DNA of 20,105 nt, taken from the UHGV virus genome UHGV-0364294; one strand, given 5' to 3'. The first letter of the stretch is position 1. Every line of letters starts with the position of its first letter. The notes beneath the pieces were generated by a model, which saw only the letters and a list, made by a program, of their open reading frames with translations, ran no database searches and had not been told where the DNA came from. Origin of the DNA: a virus. Below are positions 996 through 20,105 of this stretch, in pieces. The position numbers and the translations under genes were made by a program.

Positions 996-3134
996 TCATA
1001 AAATAGATTTCGTCTTTGTAACAATAACATCTACAAAATCGCCTGCAGATATAGCTGATGGTACTGTATCTGCAAGAGTAATCTTTCCTGAAGAGATGCT
1101 TTGCACATCTAATAATTTATTTTCAATCCCATCCGTATATACCAATTTGATATCACTGAGTGGAGGGTAATAAGTGATTGTTCCTTGGTATACATATATT
1201 TCACTACCTGAAATCGATTTCACTACATACCTGCCCCTTACAAGATTAATTTTGAGTTCAGATAAATCGGTTTTATAACAGGTAATTCCTGAACCAATGT
1301 TAGCCATACTAATATCAGTATCACTATAATAAGTAAGTGCTTTCCCTTGTTTTAAAGTAAAAGTATTTTTACTTTTCCTTGGTAAGGATGTGCTATTTTT
1401 GTAATATCTACCAGTAAAGCATAGCCATGAAAATGCAGTATTCACTACATTACCACCAGAATACACAGCTAAACGAATTGCACTAACTGGAACCCCTTCA
1501 TTATTAATCCTGATCTTAATGGAAGAAATATTAACAGCAGTGACATACCTATGGTTGGCAGAATCCCATTGCATAGAAGAAGTTATGGCTTCTGTTTGTG
1601 AGGTTATGACATTCCCATCTCTATCTAATGCATACAGGTAAATGCGAAACGATGCCGTATCTGCTGAGAATGTAAACATATCACCATTTCTTACTGGTAC
1701 ATCTCCAGATTCCCATAACAACCCAAAATTCCGCATAAAAGCAAACTTAGAAGAAACCAGGTGACGGATATTATATAAACCATCAACATCTGTTTGATAT
1801 GCTAATGCACCAACTTCTCCATTGTTAGCACTGGATATAAATGGGGTGTTAGCATTTAAAGAAAACAATGTTACTTCATCGGATATATTTTCCTGAATAT
1901 GAAATACTGCATTCCCCTTGCCATTATCAGTTACCTCGACATAAGTGTAAGGCGATGGATTGTATGGCTCATTTGTATACGCAGGAGATGAAAGCCATGT
2001 AGCTTCAATTGAGTTATTCCACGTATATTCACCAAAGTTAATTATCAACTGTTGGTTAGTTGGGGATGATGGATATCGTTCAAAACGAAACCCGTAGAAG
2101 TAATTGTTATCACCTCTTTGAATATCAATTTTACCTGCCCCCTCCATAGTTCCACCATAAAACTTATTGTGGTTATGATGATATGGATTATCAGCGAAAA
2201 TGATATTATTCGTACGATTCAGATAAAAATAGTTTTCATTTATCCATCCTTTCTCAACTCCAAGAAAATGAATTGTATCGACCTTTTTCAGGTTAAAGGT
2301 TGAGTATGCTATTGAATAATCCGTCGATGCCACCGAAGCATTATAATTTGCATATAACTGTAAGTAGTCGCAACGCTCAATGTTTATATGCTGCCCTTTT
2401 GCCCCGATAATACGAATATCCGGTGTCGTTTCAGATGAAATACCAGAATTTCTGATAATCGTTCCGAAGTTTTGTCTTGGGTTGTTAGGGTTTGATGCAT
2501 TCCCGCCAAGCAATACCCCTATTCCTGAGTGGGATATGGTAAAAACAGCATTGGTCATTTCGAGGCTGACATTACGAAGATTTAATGTCTCCGTAATAAT
2601 AAAATTACCTTCCGCTCGTAATGTTCTGGATGATTCTCGTGCATATTCTGCAGCCAAGATCAATGCAGATGTATCATCTGTTATACCATCGCCTTTTGCC
2701 CCCCACCCTCTTACATCACAATCGTCCCTCCACCGAGATATCTGCAATTCAGGATATTTTTTAGCTCCATCCGGGTCTTCTAATTGCTGCCGTAGTTGAT
2801 CAGGGTCATACTTCAGCACATTCGGAAAATAGAACTGCTGTGTACCATACGCATCATAAACAGCCATAGAATGGCCTTGCACAGTTACGAACTTGGCAAT
2901 CTGTCCGTTATATACCGGATATCCAGCAGCGTTAATGATGATTGGTTGCGAAACAGGAACGTGAGAGCCGTCTTCGTTCTCTATATAAACCTGAATCTGG
3001 TTTTCAGGATTTACCGGGTCAGTGTCAATTTTACCGATATAAATTTTGCCATTAGCTACGGCTTTAAAAGAACGCGCCATAGTGAAGAGTTGCGAAGGCA
3101 TGCTCACTACAACATTGGCTGTAATGTCTGTCAT
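996..3134 (-). CDS. Tailspike protein: P22 gp9-type N-terminal head-binding domain fused to a pectate-lyase-like beta-helix receptor-binding/depolymerase domain
   Basis: The N-terminus [11 protein letters not shown]...[36 protein letters not shown]...[12 protein letters not shown]...NVLKYDPDQ matches the P22 tailspike N-terminal domain as I recall it. Downstream, the motif [16 protein letters not shown] is typical of pectate-lyase-superfamily depolymerase domains. Length 712 aa. Confidence 0.9.
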
Positions 3135-3204
3135 TTAATTTGCTCCAGATACAAGGAATCGCCGCAGCATTGCCGCAGTGATGCATTATTAATCAAAAAA
3201 ATAC

Positions 3205-3217
3205 GACCACCGTGGTC
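3205..3217. promoter_or_regulatory. Mnt-operator-like palindrome (GACCAC-C-GTGGTC) in the mnt/tailspike intergenic region
   Basis: Perfect 6-bp arms around a central C; the core CCACnGTGG resembles the P22 mnt operator core (TCCAC-G-GTGGA as I recall it). Sits 65 nt upstream of the mnt ATG and 71 nt upstream of the tailspike ATG, which is on the other strand. Confidence 0.45.
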
Positions 3218-3281
3218 TTATTGAGGATGCAATCAGCAGATAATAAGATGCCGATCCACTCACAAAAGCGAGGCATCAAGA

Positions 3282-3533
3282 ATGGGAAGAGATGACCCGC
3301 AATTTAATCTGCGGCTACCTTACGAATTAAAGGAAAAACTAAAACAGCGAGCCAAATCCAATGGCCGCTCTCTTAATTCAGAATTAGTTCAGATAGTGAC
3401 TGATGCTGTATCAAAGCCATCCAAAATTTCAGGCTATCGAGACGATGCGGAACGCATCGCTGATGAGCAGTCAGAGCTTGTTAAGAAGATGGTGTTTGAT
3501 ACGCTGAAGGATTTGTACAAAAAACCCACCTGA
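3282..3533 (+). CDS. mnt: Mnt repressor (ribbon-helix-helix, Arc/MetJ superfamily)
   Basis: The 83-aa product MGRDDPQFNLRLPYELKEKLKQRAKSNGRSLNSELVQIVTDAVSKPS...YRDDAERIADEQSELVKKMVFDTLKDLYKKPT is close to P22 Mnt as I recall it (MARDDPHFNFRMP...NGRSMNSELLQIVQDALSKPS...DLYKKTT). GAGG lies 8 nt upstream of the ATG. Confidence 0.9.
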   Translation: MGRDDPQFNLRLPYELKEKLKQRAKSNGRSLNSELVQIVTDAVSKPSKISGYRDDAERIADEQSELVKKMVFDTLKDLYKKPT

Positions 3534-3549
3534 AGGTGGGTTAATTTTT
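3524..3549 (+). terminator. Intrinsic terminator after mnt
   Basis: Stem ACCCACC (3524-3530), loop TGAA (contains the mnt stop), stem GGTGGGT (3535-3541), followed by TTAATTTTT. Confidence 0.6.
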
Positions 3550-3567
3550 GCATTTACCTGGGCCATA

Positions 3568-3596
3568 TTGACTACTTATAAAATGAGATCAATATT
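3568..3596 (+). promoter_or_regulatory. Putative sigma70-type promoter for the small 3633-3812 gene
   Basis: TTGACT (3568-3573), 17-nt spacer, AATATT (3591-3596); ATG about 37 nt downstream. Judged by eye only. Confidence 0.3.
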
Positions 3597-3632
3597 TAAT
3601 CGCCCAATAACGGGTGTATGTTGAGGTATATC

Positions 3633-3812
3633 ATGGCGAAAAAACCAGGTGAAAACACAGGAAAAAACGGCGGAATATACCAAGAAGTTGGCCCACGCGG
3701 CGGTAAGAAAGACAATTTTGCAACCGTCAAGGACAACGAAAGGCTTCCACCAACAACAAAGCCAGGTCATGGCTGGGTATTGGATAAGCGAACTCCAGAC
3801 AGCAAAAAGTAA
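3633..3812 (+). CDS. Small hypothetical protein (59 aa), YjzC-like glycine/lysine-rich protein
   Basis: ATG at 3633 with GAGGT 5 nt upstream (the track ORF starts at 3618 without an RBS). Sequence MAKKPGENTGKNGGIYQEVGPRGGKKDNFATVKDNERLPPTTKPGHGW resembles the YjzC-like small-protein pattern from memory. Flanked by terminator-like hairpins on both sides. Confidence 0.5.
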   Translation: MAKKPGENTGKNGGIYQEVGPRGGKKDNFATVKDNERLPPTTKPGHGWVLDKRTPDSKK

Positions 3813-3818
3813 TAATCA

Positions 3819-3840
3819 AGCCGGGTCACTCCGGCTTTTT
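3819..3840 (+). terminator. Intrinsic terminator (possibly bidirectional) between the convergent 3633-3812 and 3826-4191 genes
   Basis: Stem AGCCGG (3819-3824), loop GTCACT, stem CCGGCT (3831-3836), followed by TTTTT. It overlaps the 3' end of the minus-strand gene. Confidence 0.6.
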
Positions 3841-4191
3841 GATATGTCGCTCGCAGAACTCAACAAGCCTGCTCATTAAGTAGCAGTAAGTCTCGTTGGC
3901 TCTTCCTGGTTCAACATCAACACCTACCCTTGAGCAGATATCGAATGCCATGTGAGCGCACTCATGGGCAATAGTAGATAGTTTGCCATTGAACACGCCT
4001 ATCACATGAAAAACACCATTCTCGCTACTCATTGTATGAGACGCTCCGTTGGCGTCCGAGTCATGCACGTCAACGCCAAGTTTTTGATGCAGGCGTTGCC
4101 ATTCTGGAAAGTCTCTACAAAACACAATTGTACCGCTCTCAAAGAGCGGAACGAGCATCTTTGGTACGTTTCCAATGTTAACTTTTTTCAT
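3826..4191 (-). CDS. Small HExxH protein (121 aa), putative zinc metallopeptidase-like (ImmA/IrrE- or SprT-like motif); function unknown
   Basis: Motif TIAHECAHMAF (hydrophobic-AHExxH). A weak RBS (AGGA) precedes the ATG at 4191; an alternative start is the Met at 4158. It occupies the sieA position between the gp16-like gene and mnt. Confidence 0.5.
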   Translation of the reverse strand: MKKVNIGNVPKMLVPLFESGTIVFCRDFPEWQRLHQKLGVDVHDSDANGASHTMSSENGVFHVIGVFNGKLSTIAHECAHMAFDICSRVGVDVEPGRANETYCYLMSRLVEFCERHIKKPE

Positions 4192-4225
4192 GGTATCCTG
4201 CGCAAAACTAAGGAGAGTTAATTAT

Positions 4226-4711
4226 ATGAAAAAATCACTGTTAATTATCCCGCTTCTGCTGGCTGGGTGCGCAAAAGTAAGCGACTATCAGGCAAGTTGC
4301 GAGCAACGCTATCCAAAGCTTAGCGATATGGCTAATTGCCTTGATGCCAGCTTGAAGAACGACTCTCGCATGGCATCAGCACCAACACCTAAGCTGTATG
4401 TCCTTGCTGCGAAGATGCTCGGGCAAGGTGTCGATGAAGGCAAGATAAGTGACACACAGGCAAGACTTGAACTTCAGAATCTTTATGTTCAATTACAAAG
4501 CCAAGAACAAGCACAACAAATAGCACAAAGCCAAGCATTCCAGCAGGCTTTATTGAATTATCAGGCTGTAAACACAATGCAAGCGATCGAGCAAAAAGCG
4601 CGCCAGCCTGTTATAACTCAACCTTACCCAACACGCGTTGACACATATACAAACTGCAATTCAGGATTTGGAAACACGGTAACATGCAACAGTAGCAGTA
4701 ATATCAGATAG
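4226..4711 (+). CDS. Phage-encoded secreted lipoprotein (161 aa) with a Q-rich predicted coiled-coil segment; candidate superinfection-exclusion or lysogenic-conversion protein
   Basis: ATG at 4226 preceded by AAGGAGAG (4210-4217). The N-terminus MKKSLLIIPLLLAGC has a signal peptide and lipobox (LAGC). The track ORF start at 4175 lacks an RBS. Confidence 0.65.
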   Translation: MKKSLLIIPLLLAGCAKVSDYQASCEQRYPKLSDMANCLDASLKNDSRMASAPTPKLYVLAAKMLGQGVDEGKISDTQARLELQNLYVQLQSQEQAQQIAQSQAFQQALLNYQAVNTMQAIEQKARQPVITQPYPTRVDTYTNCNSGFGNTVTCNSSSNIR

Positions 4712-4724
4712 TTATATCTTATTT

Positions 4725-6572
4725 TTATTGCTGTTCTGCTGTAATTTGGCTTGAAAGTATAGGGCGTATCGCATTTGCAGCATTATTTAGCGCTCTTTCA
4801 TAGGCTGGTGTTCCTGCTTTGGTGTTTGCCAAACGTAAGAGAGCATTCCTTGCTGCTTTTGACTCATACAAGCGCATCATTGCACCGAAACCAGCCTCAA
4901 GCCCCATTGATACGCCAAGAGTCGCAGTTGCGCCAATCGTCCTTATCCTGTTGGCTTGCGATTGCCCCGTCTGAGTTACTACATTTGCGGTGTCTGACCT
5001 TGCTGTTTGCTGTAGAACTTCATGAAGAGAATCAAGCTCTTTCATGTGCTTTCCAGAAAAAATAGTGTTGTAAATTTCACCGCCTGACTGAGATTTCAGC
5101 TTATTAACTTCAGTGATGAACTTGGCTGGAGAGTCACCGGCCTTTTCCGCTATTTTGCTGACATAAGCTGCACGCATAGCATCTTTCCCTTTATTATCCA
5201 ATGCGCTCCAGATTCGTTTCACGTCAGATGGTTTTCTGCTTAATACAACGGTATTTATAAGTTCAGGACTGGCTTCACTGCTTGCCTTGTTGAGCTTGTT
5301 AGCAATGTTTTTATTAAGCACCTTATTATAAACGTTTGCATAATCGGAATTTGCTTTAAGGTATTTTGCTGCGTCTGATGCACCGAGGTTTTTTGCAACT
5401 GCGTTACGAAGATCTTTTGACATTGCATTCTCTACCATATTGGTAGCTGCTTTTGCCTGGTTTGGGAAGACCATAGCATCTCCCTGAACATTAGATCTAA
5501 ATGCTGTTCTGTGCTGACGCAAGAGATCAAACGTAACATCCAAATCAGTTGCAGGGTTTGCTAATTCTTCACGTAGGTTACGCAAGGATGTAAGCAGGCT
5601 TTGATTGGCAGACGTCCCAAGCCGTTCCTGTCTTGCGATCGCTGTATTCAGAGCATTCATGGTATTTGTGGTATCAACTGCGGCATTACCCATTTTATTG
5701 GTGACGTCATTGATAACAGCGCCAGCGGCATCCTTCCGCCCCCTTAACGTGGTGGTAAGAGATTTCACCACATCATCAGGGTTGTACTCACCAAAACGGT
5801 CAAAATAATTACTTACCAGCTTACTACGCGTTGCATATTGCTCCGCTCGCTTTGAGCCTGTCCCGAGCAAAGCCCCCTCGGCATCCTGAGTTAGGCCGCG
5901 AGTGAAAGCATTTTTCGGCGGGATAACATCAGATGTCATTGGTGTCACGCCCATCGATTCTGATGTGGCAATTTTCTTCGCCACTTCTGGCGCAATATCA
6001 CCTTTTATAGCCGTTATTCCACGCCCTATTCCCTTTGCTGCTGCGGAAAGAACCCCCTGAGCGGCAAGGTTAACTCCGGCATTTTTAGCTGCATTTTGTG
6101 CGAAATCGCCTTTCTGATTTGCGGCCTCTGCCAGTGATCCAATAGCCATGCTTCCTGCCGTTCCAACTCCTGGAACTAAATACCCGCCAATTGTTTCTCC
6201 AGCTTGCGCATAAGGGTCTGTTGGTCGATCGACTGGACGATAGACATCGTCCAAAACCTTGGGGCCACCAAGCCCCTGGCTGATTGCATTAATCAGACTT
6301 GCGCCGCCCTGCAATACGTCAAATGGTATGTTTACCAGACCACGACCAGCCTGTTCCGCAATTTGCCCTGCACTTTGACCACCAGTGAGCCAATCGCCAG
6401 CTTGTTGCATCAATGATGGTTCTTCCCGTGTTGGTGCATTATTGGCCTGATTAACTGTTTGTTGCTGAACAGCCTGACCAGCAAAATACTCATCAATGGC
6501 GGTGCCAATATCTTCGGTGCTCGTACCATCAGGAAAGGTAAATGTCTTACCGTTTGCAGTTACTTTCATCAT
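4725..6572 (-). CDS. Ejection (internal/E) protein, P22 gp16-like
   Basis: 615 aa (P22 gp16 is about 609 aa); last gene of the ejection-protein block; Ala/Gly/Gln-rich; 4-nt ATGA overlap with the upstream gene. Confidence 0.75.
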
Positions 6573-19012: not shown

Positions 19013-19393
19013 CTACTGTTCGCTTAGCTTCTGCTTCAGCAAGTAACCTTCGAGCATCCAGATTTTGTTTACAGCATTTTGCCGGGCAATCTTCCGACCA
19101 ATTTCTGCATCAAAGTTTTCCGTGCTTGCACAGGCACTCTCTCCGGTGACGGTGAAGCCATTCTTCAGCACCAGTACGCAGAAAGTGAGCAACTTCAATG
19201 GTGATAAATCACGATCGCCTTCTTCTGGTTTTTCCCTGCCACAATATTCGTTGCTGGAAATGGCACCATTACGTCCATCATAAGCAGTAAAGTAATGCTC
19301 GCTTTTAATCACGTCTTCGATGTGCTGCGGAGTGATTCGCGGTGCCGTTTTGCCTTTCTCAACGATTTCTTTTTCGATTTGCTGGTCGTTCAT
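19013..19393 (-). CDS. Conserved phage protein, likely Phage_gp49_66 (N4 gp49 / Sf6 gp66) family; function unknown
   Basis: 126 aa with a HYFTAYDG...LTFCVLVLKNGFTVTGESACASTENFDAEIGRKIARQNA pattern that I recall as characteristic of this family. Located between the lysis and terminase genes. Confidence 0.55.
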   Translation of the reverse strand: MNDQQIEKEIVEKGKTAPRITPQHIEDVIKSEHYFTAYDGRNGAISSNEYCGREKPEEGDRDLSPLKLLTFCVLVLKNGFTVTGESACASTENFDAEIGRKIARQNAVNKIWMLEGYLLKQKLSEQ

Positions 19394-19771: not shown

Positions 19772-20105
19772 TCATCGAAGGCATTGCGTCCTGATGTACT
19801 CCTGCAAGTAGTTAACCTGCGCGGTTATCCTGTCGATTCCACTTCGGAGACGGTAATAATTGAGTTCAGCATCTGCTGTAAGTCTTGGGATTTCTCCATC
19901 GCCCATGCTGCTGGCTCCGGTCGTTGACTTTGCACAGGTGGCGGAGACTTGCAGGCGCTTACGACCAGCAGAAACATCAGCACGGAGACTTTCGATAGTC
20001 GCGTTAGCATCAGCAAGCTCCTTTGTGTATCTGGCGTCGAGTTCTGCTACATCACGTTGACGCTTCTGCATGTCAGCGATGATGTACGTGGCTTTATCGC
20101 GCTGT
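19772..20105 (-). CDS. Rz: Rz-like i-spanin, 3' portion (start lies beyond the right edge of the window)
   Basis: ...MQKRQRDVAELDARYTKELADA...LRADVSAGRKRLQV.A.C...PRLTADAE.NYYRLR matches lambda Rz (MQMRQRDVAALDAKYTKELADA...DDVAAGRRRLHIKAVC...PRLADTAERDYFTLR) as I recall it. The reading frame is open to the window end. Confidence 0.8.
   Translation of the reverse strand, partial: QRDKATYIIADMQKRQRDVAELDARYTKELADANATIESLRADVSAGRKRLQVSATCAKSTTGASSMGDGEIPRLTADAELNYYRLRSGIDRITAQVNYLQEYIRTQCLR
19825..20016 (-). CDS. Rz1: Rz1-like o-spanin lipoprotein embedded out of frame within Rz
   Basis: 63-aa ORF in an alternative frame inside Rz; MLMLTRLSKVSVLMFLLVVSAC has a signal peptide and lipobox Cys, followed by a proline-rich segment (KSPPPVQSQRPEP), like lambda Rz1. 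Confidence 0.7.
   Translation of the reverse strand: MLMLTRLSKVSVLMFLLVVSACKSPPPVQSQRPEPAAWAMEKSQDLQQMLNSIITVSEVESTG

What the first reader, a model, noticed from the sequence alone, without database searches (positions are those of the whole stretch)
3826..4711. Unassigned divergent gene pair (HExxH protein and lipoprotein) in the sieA/immI hotspot
In P22 the interval between gene 16 and mnt carries sieA. Here that slot holds a 121-aa HExxH (metallopeptidase-like) protein on the minus strand and a 161-aa secreted lipoprotein with a Q-rich coiled coil on the plus strand. Their start codons are only 34 bp apart (4191 and 4226), so each promoter must lie inside or overlap the other gene's 5' end. 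I recognise neither as sieA or any other characterised P22 immunity gene. Prophage lipoproteins (Cor, Llp and similar) and small metallopeptidase-like proteins are recurrent exclusion or defence effectors, so this is my best candidate for an undescribed exclusion or anti-phage module.
Basis: partly seen in the sequence, partly recalled or inferred. Interest (0 to 1): 0.8.

Follow-up and report, generated by a model that had tools for sequence, protein, structure and literature searches.

The report
Prophage lipoprotein replacing P22 sieA
Both genes are real but they are not a unit: the HExxH gene is hkcC, an uncharacterised gene that P22 and HK620 also carry, while the lipoprotein is a separate cassette that replaces the superinfection-exclusion gene sieA behind the same promoter, which makes it a plausible but untested new exclusion protein.

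Summary
In detail: a 121-aa HECAH protein (3826-4191, minus strand) and a 161-aa lipoprotein (4226-4711, plus strand) have start codons 34 bp apart in the gene 16 / mnt interval of a P22-like E. coli prophage.

- **HExxH gene.** It is hkcC (98% identical to HK620 hkcC). It is intact in P22 itself and is already listed in the literature as a gene of unknown function. It points the same way as the late operon, and its diverged homologues also sit in late operons. It looks like a minimal HExxH-x19-E zinc peptidase.
- **Lipoprotein.** Homology to P22 (115/116 nt across the PsieA region) ends exactly at the Shine-Dalgarno sequence, so this ORF replaces sieA behind the sieA promoter.
- **Position.** In about 100 loci from at least seven genera the lipoprotein gene lies at the gene 16 end of P22-like (pro)phages. 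It never occurs with SieA type A or B, and it has hkcC beside it in only about 10-22% of cases.
- **No two-gene module.** The two genes are inherited independently.

The lipoprotein belongs to an uncharacterised family with no Pfam, PADLOC or PDB match. It is predicted to be anchored in the outer membrane. I consider it a credible, untested candidate for a non-homologous substitute for SieA. Interest is moderate.

The parts
4226..4711 (+). 161-aa lipoprotein gene, a moron occupying the sieA position. Layout: signal peptide and lipobox (Cys15), helical N-terminal domain with Cys25/Cys38, Q-rich helix, Pro-rich linker, C-terminal Cys144/Cys154 hairpin.
   Evidence: ORF and sequence. phrog_6067, unknown function, E=2.9e-109. 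No Pfam, NCBIfam or PADLOC hit. Family alignment with invariant Cys. dN/dS 0.04-0.05. Position next to gene 16 in about 100 loci.
4226..4270 (+). Signal peptide and lipobox L-A-G-C. The Cys15 codon is 4268-4270. Residue +2 is Ala, so the standard Lol sorting rule predicts outer-membrane localisation.
   Evidence: Sequence. Cys15 is invariant, and +2 is A, T, Q, S or V and never Asp across the family. Localisation is inferred from the +2 rule (established knowledge).
4646..4708 (+). C-terminal module: T-x-C-x8-C disulfide-type hairpin (residues 141-161). It is mosaic and variable between close relatives.
   Evidence: Cys at 144 and 154. P0056 is 87-95% identical over the N-terminal and Q-rich parts but 21% over this module. 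The hairpin motif is conserved across the distant superfamily.
4100..4215 (+). PsieA-type promoter region plus Shine-Dalgarno AAGGAG (4210-4215), shared with P22. The PsieA annotation in P22 maps to 4161-4191. An extended -10-like TGGTATCCT lies at 4191-4199.
   Evidence: 115/116 nt identical to P22, and homology breaks right after AAGGAG. PsieA annotation in AF527608. 85 bp upstream of sieA is enough for single-copy exclusion in P22 (PMC10883804). The TGnTATCCT...AAGGAG element is retained in most architectures, including those where hkcC is deleted.
3826..4191 (-). hkcC: 121-aa predicted cytoplasmic minimal zinc metallopeptidase. HECAH is at 3952-3966 and N99-E100 at 3892-3897. It is co-oriented with the late operon.
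   Evidence: 98% identical to HK620 hkcC and to the P22 ORF. phrog_1365 E=1.8e-39. H76, E77, C78, H80, A98, N99, E100 and T101 are invariant, also in a Pseudomonas phage homologue. AF2 pLDDT 87.6. Weak zincin fold matches. Phage-wide fold family.
3818..3837 (.). Hairpin terminator between orf59a and hkcC. It corresponds to t-mnt of P22 and to the bidirectional tORF59A of HK620. The T-run is on the plus strand only.
   Evidence: Terminator scan. P22 and HK620 annotations.
3618..3812 (+). orf59a homologue (64 aa, weakly YjzC-like). Context gene of the 'ant moron'.
   Evidence: 98% identical to P22 orf59a. phrog_3202. PF14168 E=0.0017, below the cutoff.
3282..3533 (+). mnt (Arc/Mnt-family repressor, 83 aa). 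Context gene. No arc or ant is present in this window.
   Evidence: Pfam Arc 2.8e-22 and Repressor_Mnt 2.2e-18. ORF list.
4725..6572 (-). Gene 16 (ejection / DNA-transfer protein, 615 aa). It is convergent with the lipoprotein gene, with stop codons 13 bp apart and no terminator predicted between them.
   Evidence: phrog_770 E=7.5e-280. 74% identical to P22 gp16. Terminator scan.

Best explanation
The two ORFs are independent genes that happen to be neighbours in the hypervariable 'ant moron' of a P22-like prophage.

**1. The lipoprotein gene (4226-4711).**
- *Shown:* it is a self-contained moron that replaces the sieA ORF exactly at the Shine-Dalgarno sequence, behind the conserved PsieA promoter.
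- *Inferred from P22 experiments on the near-identical promoter:* it is transcribed constitutively from the prophage, antisense to the late operon.
- *Inferred from the lipobox, Ala at +2 and the conserved Cys pairs:* the product is exported, lipidated at Cys15 and sorted to the periplasmic face of the outer membrane.
- *Most likely function, about 40-45%, inferred and untested:* envelope-level superinfection exclusion of P22-like phages. It could block either an outer-membrane step (tail needle or secondary receptor) or assembly of the gp7/gp20/gp16 trans-periplasmic DNA conduit. That would make it a non-homologous substitute for the inner-membrane protein SieA. The variable C-terminal Cys hairpin is the probable specificity element.

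**2. hkcC (3826-4191).**
- It is a conserved gene of P22, HK620 and related phages.
- It encodes a small cytoplasmic HExxH-x19-E (gluzincin-like) zinc peptidase.
- It is probably transcribed by late-operon read-through during lytic growth.
- Its substrate is unknown, and it is not a partner of the lipoprotein.
For: **Junction**
- Window 4100-4215 is 115/116 identical to P22, and identity ends after AAGGAG.
- P22 annotates PsieA inside this stretch.
- sieA with 85 bp of upstream DNA gives at least 10^7-fold exclusion in single copy (PMC10883804).

**Slot behaviour**
- In 16 annotated or genomic loci the lipoprotein gene lies between the tailspike gene and gene 16 wherever there is enough flank. 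The genera are Escherichia, Salmonella, Proteus, Serratia, Yersinia, Providencia and Tatumella.
- In 80 IMG/VR contigs it abuts gene 16 in 77, across three gp16 sequence types.
- SieA is reported at the same slot in all examined cases.
- No lipoprotein locus carries SieA type A or B.
- The other occupants behind the same junction are also membrane-anchored: SieA, HK620 hkcB and the ST160 ORF, each with an N-terminal TM segment and a coiled coil.
- In BTP1 the same slot produces an immunity RNA (PMC7067206).

**Protein features**
- Cys15 is invariant (lipobox L-A-G-C in the window protein), no Asp occurs at +2, and the Cys pairs are conserved.
- The C-terminal module is mosaic.
- Purifying selection is strong.

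**Independence of the two genes**.

**hkcC**
- Identity to the P22 and HK620 genes, and its listing in PMC2629481.
- Invariant HECxH and ANET motifs.
- Confident AF2 model with a beta-sheet, the HExxH helix and a helix that starts at the Glu.
- The spacing equals that of thermolysin.
- Late-operon position of homologues in ST64T and mEp021, and presence in lytic phages.
- No minus-strand terminator between gene 16 and hkcC.
Against: **Lipoprotein**
- No functional data exist for it.
- It has no homology to any known exclusion protein. The Cor PHROG hit is E=0.09 and covers the signal peptide only. PADLOC gives nothing.
- The model is weak (pLDDT 61.7) and has no fold match.
- Position alone is weak evidence. 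This slot is described as the only place in the late operon where morons occur (PMC2629481).
- Distant relatives also occur in chromosomal-looking neighbourhoods (L021, L105) and in non-P22 phage contexts. The fold is therefore not specific to P22-like phages and may have a cellular envelope role.
- Promoter activity here is inferred from P22 and was not measured.

**hkcC**
- No Pfam peptidase family matches.
- Zinc binding and catalysis are unproven, and late expression is inferred from orientation only.
Confidence: 0.5

Rival explanations
1. The lipoprotein is a lysogenic-conversion or host-fitness factor and not an anti-phage one. It would be an outer-membrane lipoprotein that changes envelope properties, such as serum resistance (as lambda Bor / Iss), stress tolerance or adhesion. 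It sits in this slot only because the slot tolerates morons.
For: - The slot is described as the only moron-tolerant site in the late operon (PMC2629481).
- Distant family members occur in chromosomal housekeeping neighbourhoods (L021 next to uvrC, udg and bio genes; L105), which suggests a cellular envelope role for the fold.
- The gene is frequent in pathogenic lineages, including O104:H4, ST131 and genomes over 5.7 Mb of EHEC-like size.
Against: - No match to the Bor/Iss family or any Pfam or NCBIfam family.
- Every member of the close subfamily (50% identity or more) whose context was examined lies in a P22-like element at the gene 16 end. It replaces sieA one-for-one behind PsieA and never co-occurs with SieA. 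A general fitness moron would be expected to spread to other lambdoid phages.
- The mosaic, fast-changing C-terminal module fits an arms race better.
Confidence: 0.25
2. The two genes form a functional pair. One version resembles the phi80 Tai/Ati 'noncontiguous operon': a constitutively expressed defence gene (the lipoprotein) embedded antisense in the late operon, next to a late-expressed counter-defence gene (the hkcC protease) that spares the resident phage.
For: - The layout is the same as the Tai/Ati arrangement: opposite-strand constitutive gene, adjacent late-operon-oriented gene, overlapping control region (PMC11364771).
- The start codons are 34 bp apart, and PsieA lies inside hkcC.
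Against: - The genes are inherited independently. hkcC is adjacent in 18 of 80 viral contigs, and the pair occurs in 18 E. coli genomes against 186 with the lipoprotein gene and 131 with hkcC.
- hkcC pairs with sieA, hkcB or another ORF elsewhere.
- hkcC homologues sit between the lysis and terminase genes, with no partner in this slot, and occur in strictly lytic phages.
- hkcC has no signal peptide, while the lipoprotein is periplasmic.
- phi80 was not among the tblastn hits of either protein.
Confidence: 0.06
3. The active product is partly or mainly the RNA. The PsieA transcript runs through the lipoprotein ORF and, lacking a terminator, on into the 3' end of gene 16 as an antisense RNA. 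It would then silence gene 16 / late transcripts of incoming related phages, as STnc6030 does in BTP1.
For: [quoted passage not shown]
- Here the lipoprotein stop is 13 bp from the gene 16 stop, and no terminator is predicted between them.
Against: - The ORF is under strong protein-level purifying selection (dN/dS 0.04-0.05), with conserved Cys residues (invariant lipobox Cys15) across genera at 50-60% aa identity. The protein is therefore the selected product.
- The same lipoprotein gene abuts three unrelated gp16 sequence types, so any antisense effect would be incidental and specific to the resident phage.
- No Rfam family matches.
Confidence: 0.08
4. The lipoprotein serves the phage's own lytic cycle and not the lysogen. 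For example, it could protect progeny from abortive ejection on cell debris (the role proposed for T5 Llp), or it could assist lysis or release.
For: - sieA is reported to be upregulated during induction (PMC10883804), so genes in this slot can be active in lytic growth.
- Receptor-masking lipoproteins such as T5 Llp are known (general knowledge).
Against: - The gene is antisense to the late operon, so late transcription should collide with it. In phi80, Q expression reduced TaiEcA.
- The phage already has its own Rz/Rz1 spanins at about 19.8-20.1 kb.
- Many P22-like phages lack the gene entirely.
Confidence: 0.08

Closest known systems
P22 SieA (types A, B, C), inner-membrane superinfection-exclusion protein (Leavitt et al. 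2024, PMC10883804)
   Same: Identical genomic position (convergent with gene 16), the same promoter and SD region (115/116 nt), similar size (161 vs 164 aa), envelope location, restriction of the close subfamily to P22-like prophages of several enterobacterial genera, and mutual exclusivity in the slot.
   Different: No sequence similarity. SieA is a polytopic inner-membrane protein with a cytoplasmic FxRYPxEAxxFNK motif. This protein is a lipobox lipoprotein predicted to sit in the outer membrane, with no TM helices. Its function is untested.
Cor (phi80/N15/HK022) and Llp (T5), outer-membrane lipoproteins that block the FhuA receptor
   Same: Phage-encoded small lipoproteins predicted to sit in the outer membrane. 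They are expressed independently of morphogenesis genes and contain disulfide-forming Cys.
   Different: No homology: the phrog_1119 (Cor) hit has E=0.09 and covers only the signal peptide. This protein is about twice as long and has a Q-rich helix. The resident phages are O-antigen-binding podoviruses that do not use FhuA.
HK620 hkcC / unannotated P22 ORF / L and ST64T Orf129 (phrog_1365)
   Same: The 121-aa HExxH protein is this gene: 98% identical to the HK620 and P22 copies and 37-39% to Orf129, with the same orientation and the same neighbours orf59a and mnt.
   Different: Nothing material. Only the gene on its 5' side differs: lipoprotein here, sieA in P22, hkcB in HK620.
Gluzincin metallopeptidases (thermolysin M4, M3 oligopeptidases) and minimal zincins (SprT-like, IrrE/ImmA M78, 'zincin-like' 3E11)
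   Same: HExxH in a helix, followed by a conserved Glu 20 residues after the second His at the start of the next helix (NE motif, the same spacing as thermolysin H146-E166). A beta-sheet precedes the active-site helix. These families recur among the best fold hits.
Tai/Ati 'noncontiguous operon' of phi80 (PMC11364771)
   Same: A constitutive antisense gene interrupts the Q-dependent late operon, next to a gene oriented with the late operon.
   Different: No homology at tblastn level. Tai is a 26-kDa protein that blocks tail assembly. The two genes here are not co-inherited.
BTP1 STnc6030 antisense RNA (PMC7067206)
   Same: A prophage-expressed product from the same inter-16/9 region and the same strand that confers immunity to superinfection.
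   Different: STnc6030 is non-coding. Here the selected product is a conserved protein.

Membership tests
Bacterial lipoprotein (Lgt/LspA/Lnt substrate), outer-membrane sorted | N-terminal signal peptide ending in a lipobox [LVI][ASTVI][GAS]C with an invariant Cys | tested here: met
   MKKSLLIIPLLLAG-C15. Cys15 is invariant in 40 close and 33 distant homologues.
Bacterial lipoprotein (Lgt/LspA/Lnt substrate), outer-membrane sorted | No Asp at +2 (Lol avoidance signal absent), so outer-membrane destination | tested here: met
   +2 is Ala here, and A, T, Q, S or V across the family. Actual localisation cannot be tested with these tools.
SieA superinfection-exclusion family (types A/B/C) | Sequence homology, including the FxRYPxEAxxFNK motif and multiple TM helices | tested here: not met
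   BLASTP finds no alignment to P22 SieA. As a positive control, the HS1 type B protein aligns with P22 SieA at 28% identity with the motif present. The mature lipoprotein is hydrophilic.
SieA superinfection-exclusion family (types A/B/C) | Position between genes 16 and 9 of a P22-like prophage, convergent with gene 16, own promoter | tested here: met
   This is a positional equivalence, not family membership.
SieA superinfection-exclusion family (types A/B/C) | Blocks DNA injection by P22-like phages | not testable with these tools
   Needs EOP, lysogenisation and K+ efflux assays.
Cor / Llp receptor-blocking lipoproteins; Bor/Iss lipoproteins | Sequence homology to the family | tested here: not met
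   The PHROG Cor family hit is E=0.092 over residues 1-29 only. No Pfam or NCBIfam hit, so none to any Bor or Cor model in those libraries.
Phage moron (independently expressed insert in an operon) | Present or absent among otherwise syntenic relatives, own promoter, orientation or expression independent of the surrounding operon | tested here: met
   The gene is variably present and its neighbours vary. A conserved promoter-like element plus SD travels with the ORF. It is antisense to the late operon. Promoter activity is inferred from P22.
Known anti-phage defence systems (PADLOC-DB v2) | Match to any defence-protein HMM | tested here: not met
   No hit for either protein at E up to 1.
hkcC / phrog_1365 | Full-length sequence homology | tested here: met
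   phrog_1365 E=1.8e-39 over residues 1-121. 98.3% identity to HK620 hkcC and to the P22 ORF.
Gluzincin zinc metallopeptidase | HExxH in a helix, with a third-ligand Glu in the following helix | tested here: met
   H76, E77, H80 and E100 are invariant. The model has helices 71-88 and 100-116. The +20 spacing matches thermolysin.
Gluzincin zinc metallopeptidase | Significant sequence or structural similarity to a recognised peptidase family (MEROPS/Pfam) | tested here: not met
Gluzincin zinc metallopeptidase | Zinc binding and peptidase activity | not testable with these tools
   Needs a biochemical assay and H76A/E77A mutants.
Tai/Ati defence and counter-defence pair | Homology to Tai or Ati, and co-inheritance of the two genes | tested here: not met
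   phi80 is absent from the tblastn hits of both proteins in the phage collection. The pair is adjacent in only 18 of 80 loci.

The most novel reading that the evidence does not exclude
The lipoprotein family would be a previously unrecognised, outer-membrane-anchored superinfection-exclusion system of P22-like phages. It would be a second, non-homologous answer to the problem SieA solves, acting from the outer-membrane side of the periplasm on the tail needle or the gp7/gp20/gp16 ejection conduit. The recombining C-terminal disulfide hairpin would set target specificity. Its distant relatives on satellites and other phages would then be a broader class of envelope-level anti-phage lipoproteins.
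Probability: 0.3. Interest if true: 0.6.

Novelty: new variant of a known kind. Interest (0 to 1): 0.4.

Why it matters

- **If the lipoprotein is an exclusion protein.** A non-homologous, outer-membrane-anchored protein that evolution has swapped into the same promoter slot would probe the outer-membrane and periplasmic half of the P22 ejection-protein conduit. It would be a natural partner to SieA for mapping how gp7, gp20 and gp16 cross the envelope.
- **Prevalence.** The gene is common: 186 of 5,426 complete E. coli genomes carry it, including O104:H4 and ST131 strains. It could therefore affect how susceptible clinical strains are to P22-like or therapeutic podoviruses.
- **hkcC.** Recognising it as a widely conserved, late-oriented minimal zinc peptidase gives a testable handle on a long-ignored P22 and HK620 gene.
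- **If the lipoprotein is only a fitness moron.** The finding is ordinary.

Tried and rejected
- **Family libraries.** Pfam, NCBIfam and PADLOC scans of both proteins gave no meaningful hit. The lantibiotic hits on hkcC are noise, with E above 0.02 and scores below the cutoff.
- **PDB sequence searches.** Single-sequence searches gave only a weak thermolysin hit for hkcC and nothing for the lipoprotein. Family-profile searches gave nothing for hkcC and only noise (E about 0.9) for the lipoprotein.
- **Fold searches.**
  - Foldseek of the lipoprotein model against PDB found nothing, and the model has low confidence.
  - The AFDB50 library was unavailable.
- **Second hkcC copy in the window.** I tested the 126-aa ORF at 19013-19393, which sits where ST64T has Orf129. 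It is unrelated.
- **The 161-aa lipoprotein as the o-spanin.** Rejected, because Rz/Rz1 lie at about 19.8-20.1 kb.
- **Rfam scan of the whole window.** No family matched.
- **Literature.** A search for hkcC returned only unrelated acronyms. I found no paper describing this lipoprotein.
- **The 178-aa reading from ATG 4175.** Rejected in favour of the start at 4226.
Full report
**Observation.** The window is the late-operon end of a P22-like (Lederbergvirus) prophage of E. coli. The minus strand carries the terminase, portal, coat, ejection genes 7/20/16 and the tailspike. The 20-kb region is essentially identical to a prophage next to dacD/sbmC in strain Ecol_881, and the 886-bp pair is 99.9% identical in ST131 isolates.

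Between gene 16 (4725-6572, minus) and the tailspike (996-3134, minus) lie four genes:
- mnt (3282-3533, plus)
- an orf59a homologue (3618-3812, plus)
- the 121-aa HECAH ORF (3826-4191, minus)
- the 161-aa lipoprotein ORF (4226-4711, plus)

The start codons are 34 bp apart, as reported. Both ORFs are real genes: dN/dS is 0.04-0.05 for the lipoprotein and 0.10-0.17 for the HExxH gene, and both have many homologues.

**The HExxH gene is hkcC, and P22 has it too.**
- Megablast shows that P22 records match window 3435-4219 at about 97%.
- P22 contains an intact 121-aa ORF (125 aa counted from an upstream GTG) that is 98% identical to the window protein. AF527608 and BK000583 leave it unannotated.
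- In HK620 it is annotated hkcC.
- Villafane et al. [quoted passage not shown] They call the whole inter-16/9 region the hypervariable "ant moron", with ten types in sixteen genomes (PMC2629481).
- tblastn finds the gene in 82 phage records. 52 are at more than 95% identity. About 29 are at under 60% (37-39% in L Orf129, ST64T, epsilon34 and ST104; about 36% in mEp021-like phages; 32% in the N4-like lytic Pseudomonas phage phCDa).

**What hkcC looks like.**
- Across this range, P15, L16, F17, G49, T73, H76, E77, C78, H80, G90, V91, A98, N99, E100 and T101 are invariant.
- The Glu lies 20 residues after the second His, the same spacing as thermolysin H146-E166. The only PDB sequence hit is thermolysin or neutral protease, and it aligns on exactly these motifs, though weakly (E=0.15).
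- The AlphaFold model is confident (pLDDT 87.6, pTM 0.83). It has a beta-sheet, a helix at 71-88 carrying HExxH, and a helix at 100-116 that begins at E100.
- Foldseek against BFVD finds 25 phage proteins at E<1e-3, from temperate and strictly lytic phages. A few are labelled SprT-like.
- A profile search finds 321 clusters, none with a Pfam domain.
- There is no signal peptide.

I conclude that hkcC is a minimal gluzincin-like zinc peptidase of unknown substrate. Membership in any curated peptidase family is not established.

**Orientation and probable expression of hkcC.**
- hkcC reads in the same direction as gene 16 and the tailspike gene.
- No minus-strand terminator is predicted between gene 16 and hkcC.
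- Its diverged homologues in ST64T/L and mEp021 lie in the late operon between the lysis genes and the small terminase, again co-oriented.

This points to late, lytic-cycle expression by read-through (inference). It argues against a function expressed from the prophage.

**The lipoprotein replaces sieA at a fixed junction.**
- Window 4100-4215 is 115/116 identical to P22. Identity ends immediately after the Shine-Dalgarno AAGGAG (4210-4215). After that point P22 continues into sieA and the window continues into the lipoprotein ORF.
- P22's annotated PsieA maps to window 4161-4191, inside the hkcC 5' end.
- Leavitt et al. showed that sieA with only 85 bp of upstream DNA, in single copy, excludes P22 by at least 10^7-fold (PMC10883804). 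Since this promoter region is nearly identical here, the lipoprotein is very probably expressed from the prophage (inference).
- ST160/SE1 and HK620 use the same junction for other ORFs (an unnamed ORF and hkcB). Both are small proteins with an N-terminal TM segment and a coiled coil. So every occupant seen behind this junction is a membrane-anchored protein.
- A short element, CATG[G/A]TATCCTG..AAAACTAAGGAGAGTTAA (extended -10-like TGnTATCCT at 4191-4199, plus the SD), accompanies the lipoprotein ORF in most architectures, including those where hkcC is deleted. Together they form a self-contained moron.

**Where the lipoprotein gene occurs.**
- In five phage genomes (Gally, vB_EcoP-720R6, VSe13, MS2 LVA, Proteus phage Brookers) and in Serratia, Yersinia, Providencia, Tatumella and Citrobacter genomes, the gene lies between the tailspike and gene 16 of a P22-like element wherever there is enough flank.
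- In 80 IMG/VR contigs with 97-100% identical copies, gene 16 follows immediately in 77, and it belongs to three different sequence types. hkcC is the upstream neighbour in only 18. In the rest the neighbour is mnt, an Sf6-gp15-like gene or ant.
- In complete E. coli genomes the lipoprotein gene is in 186 of 5,426 and hkcC in 131. The two are adjacent in 18.
- No lipoprotein locus (107 loci searched) carries SieA type A or type B. HS1 SieA-B was retrieved and confirmed as a positive control.

The constant association is therefore lipoprotein with the gene 16 end, the same as Leavitt et al. report for SieA. It is not lipoprotein with hkcC. The two-gene-module reading is not supported.

**What the lipoprotein looks like.**
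- The lipobox is L-A-G-C15, with Ala at +2. Asp never occurs at +2 in the family, so the Lol rule predicts outer-membrane anchoring facing the periplasm (the rule is established knowledge).
- Cys25/Cys38 and Cys144/Cys154 are conserved, which fits disulfides formed in the periplasm.
- AlphaFold gives a moderately confident helical domain (residues about 18-97, pLDDT about 80), a low-confidence Q-rich helix, a Pro-rich linker and a C-terminal beta-hairpin. No PDB fold or sequence match was found.
- The C-terminal hairpin module is mosaic. P0056 is 87-95% identical over the N-terminal and Q-rich parts but 21% over this module. That pattern is typical of a specificity element under diversifying pressure.
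- An exhaustive profile search finds 234 representative clusters with the same architecture: lipobox, the Cys pair, a KLYxLxA...G.ISD.DAR.ELQ motif, a variable linker and a T-x-C-x8-C hairpin. None of those scanned has a Pfam family.
- Their contexts are mixed: two chromosomal-looking, one cargo of an integrase/AlpA/primase satellite-like element next to a T5orf172 gene, two in other phage-like contigs, and one P22-like.

**Mechanism.**
- *Shown:* the cassette replacement at the PsieA/SD junction; the slot specificity; the mutual exclusivity with SieA; the lipoprotein features; the independence from hkcC.
- *Inferred:* constitutive expression from the prophage; outer-membrane localisation.
- *Hypothesised (about 40-45%):* exclusion of superinfecting P22-like phages at the envelope, from the outer-membrane side. 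The target could be the needle or a secondary receptor, or assembly of the gp7/gp20/gp16 conduit that SieA is thought to block at the inner membrane.

The prior for this hypothesis is raised by three precedents of immunity or exclusion functions in this region: SieA types A, B and C; the immI genes; and the STnc6030 antisense RNA of BTP1 (PMC7067206).

**Rivals.**
- A Bor-like host-fitness moron (about 25%). The moron-permissive nature of the site and the chromosomal relatives support it.
- An incidental antisense-RNA effect on gene 16. The stop codons are 13 bp apart with no terminator. Strong protein-level selection argues against this being the main function.
- A role in the lytic cycle.
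- A Tai/Ati-like defence and counter-defence pair. The architecture is analogous (PMC11364771), but the co-occurrence data contradict it.

**Novelty and verdict.** hkcC is already known as an ORF. What is new here is only its recognition as a conserved minimal zinc peptidase oriented with the late operon. I found no description of the lipoprotein as an alternative occupant of the sieA slot in the searchable literature. If it is an exclusion protein, it is a new variant of a known kind (prophage Sie proteins) with no homology to SieA, Cor or Llp. Half of the 'pair' is a standard P22 gene, the module hypothesis fails, and the function of the lipoprotein remains an inference from position.

Noticed in passing
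window 4711-4727: The lipoprotein stop codon and the gene 16 stop codon are only 13 bp apart, and no terminator is predicted between them. A PsieA transcript would run antisense into the 3' end of gene 16, which recalls the immunity-conferring antisense RNA STnc6030 of BTP1.
   Followed up: partly
window 4221-4226 (minus strand): A perfect TATAAT hexamer on the minus strand overlaps the lipoprotein start codon, about 30 nt upstream of the hkcC ATG. It is created by the cassette junction and is absent from P22. It might give hkcC a weak promoter of its own in this arrangement. It has no good -35 and the promoter scan did not flag it.
   Followed up: partly
window 3282-3533 and 3134-3282: The immI region is reduced to mnt alone: there is no arc, ant or sar, so Mnt is an orphan repressor here. 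Many related loci show the same reduction, and some keep ant.
   Followed up: partly
window 3618-3812: The orf59a homologue (64 aa, Gly/Lys-rich) matches the YjzC-like family (PF14168) weakly, below the cutoff, and phrog_3202. It is 98-100% conserved with P22, ST160 and HK620, and its function is unknown.
   Followed up: no
L008 2641-2970 (HK620 hkcB); L003 about 3121-3450 (ST160): The other ORFs found behind the same PsieA/SD junction are small proteins with an N-terminal transmembrane segment followed by a coiled coil. Every occupant seen behind this junction is therefore envelope-anchored.
   Followed up: partly
L022 5001-5534 and L023: A distant member of the lipoprotein superfamily (177 aa) is cargo on a small integrase/AlpA/primase-AAA_25 element resembling a phage satellite. 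It sits next to a T5orf172/MUG113 gene, a position where satellites often carry defence genes.
   Followed up: no
phage records SE1, ST160, ST-35, UAB_Phi20 (places_in_record = 2): Some Salmonella P22-like phages have two hkcC-family matches in their record. In those where both positions are known the pattern would be one copy in the ant moron and one Orf129-type copy between the lysis and terminase genes. This window has only the ant-moron copy.
   Followed up: partly
L009-L011 (Serratia marcescens): The lipoprotein lies beside a truncated gp16-like gene (490 aa), which is followed by DNA polymerase A and SNF2 genes instead of gene 20 and gene 7. This looks like a hybrid or remnant element and not an intact P22-like prophage.
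   Followed up: no
L108 40899-49001 (E. coli HS): A BREX type 1 system and an HsdM-like methyltransferase cluster lie directly beyond the integrase end of the HS1 prophage, so a defence island adjoins the prophage.
   Followed up: no
window 19772-20071 and 19825-20016 (minus strand): The Rz / Rz1 spanin pair is visible as an embedded lipoprotein ORF (MLMLTRLSKVSVLMFLLVVSAC...) inside the Rz frame. This confirms that the phage has its own o-spanin.
   Followed up: no
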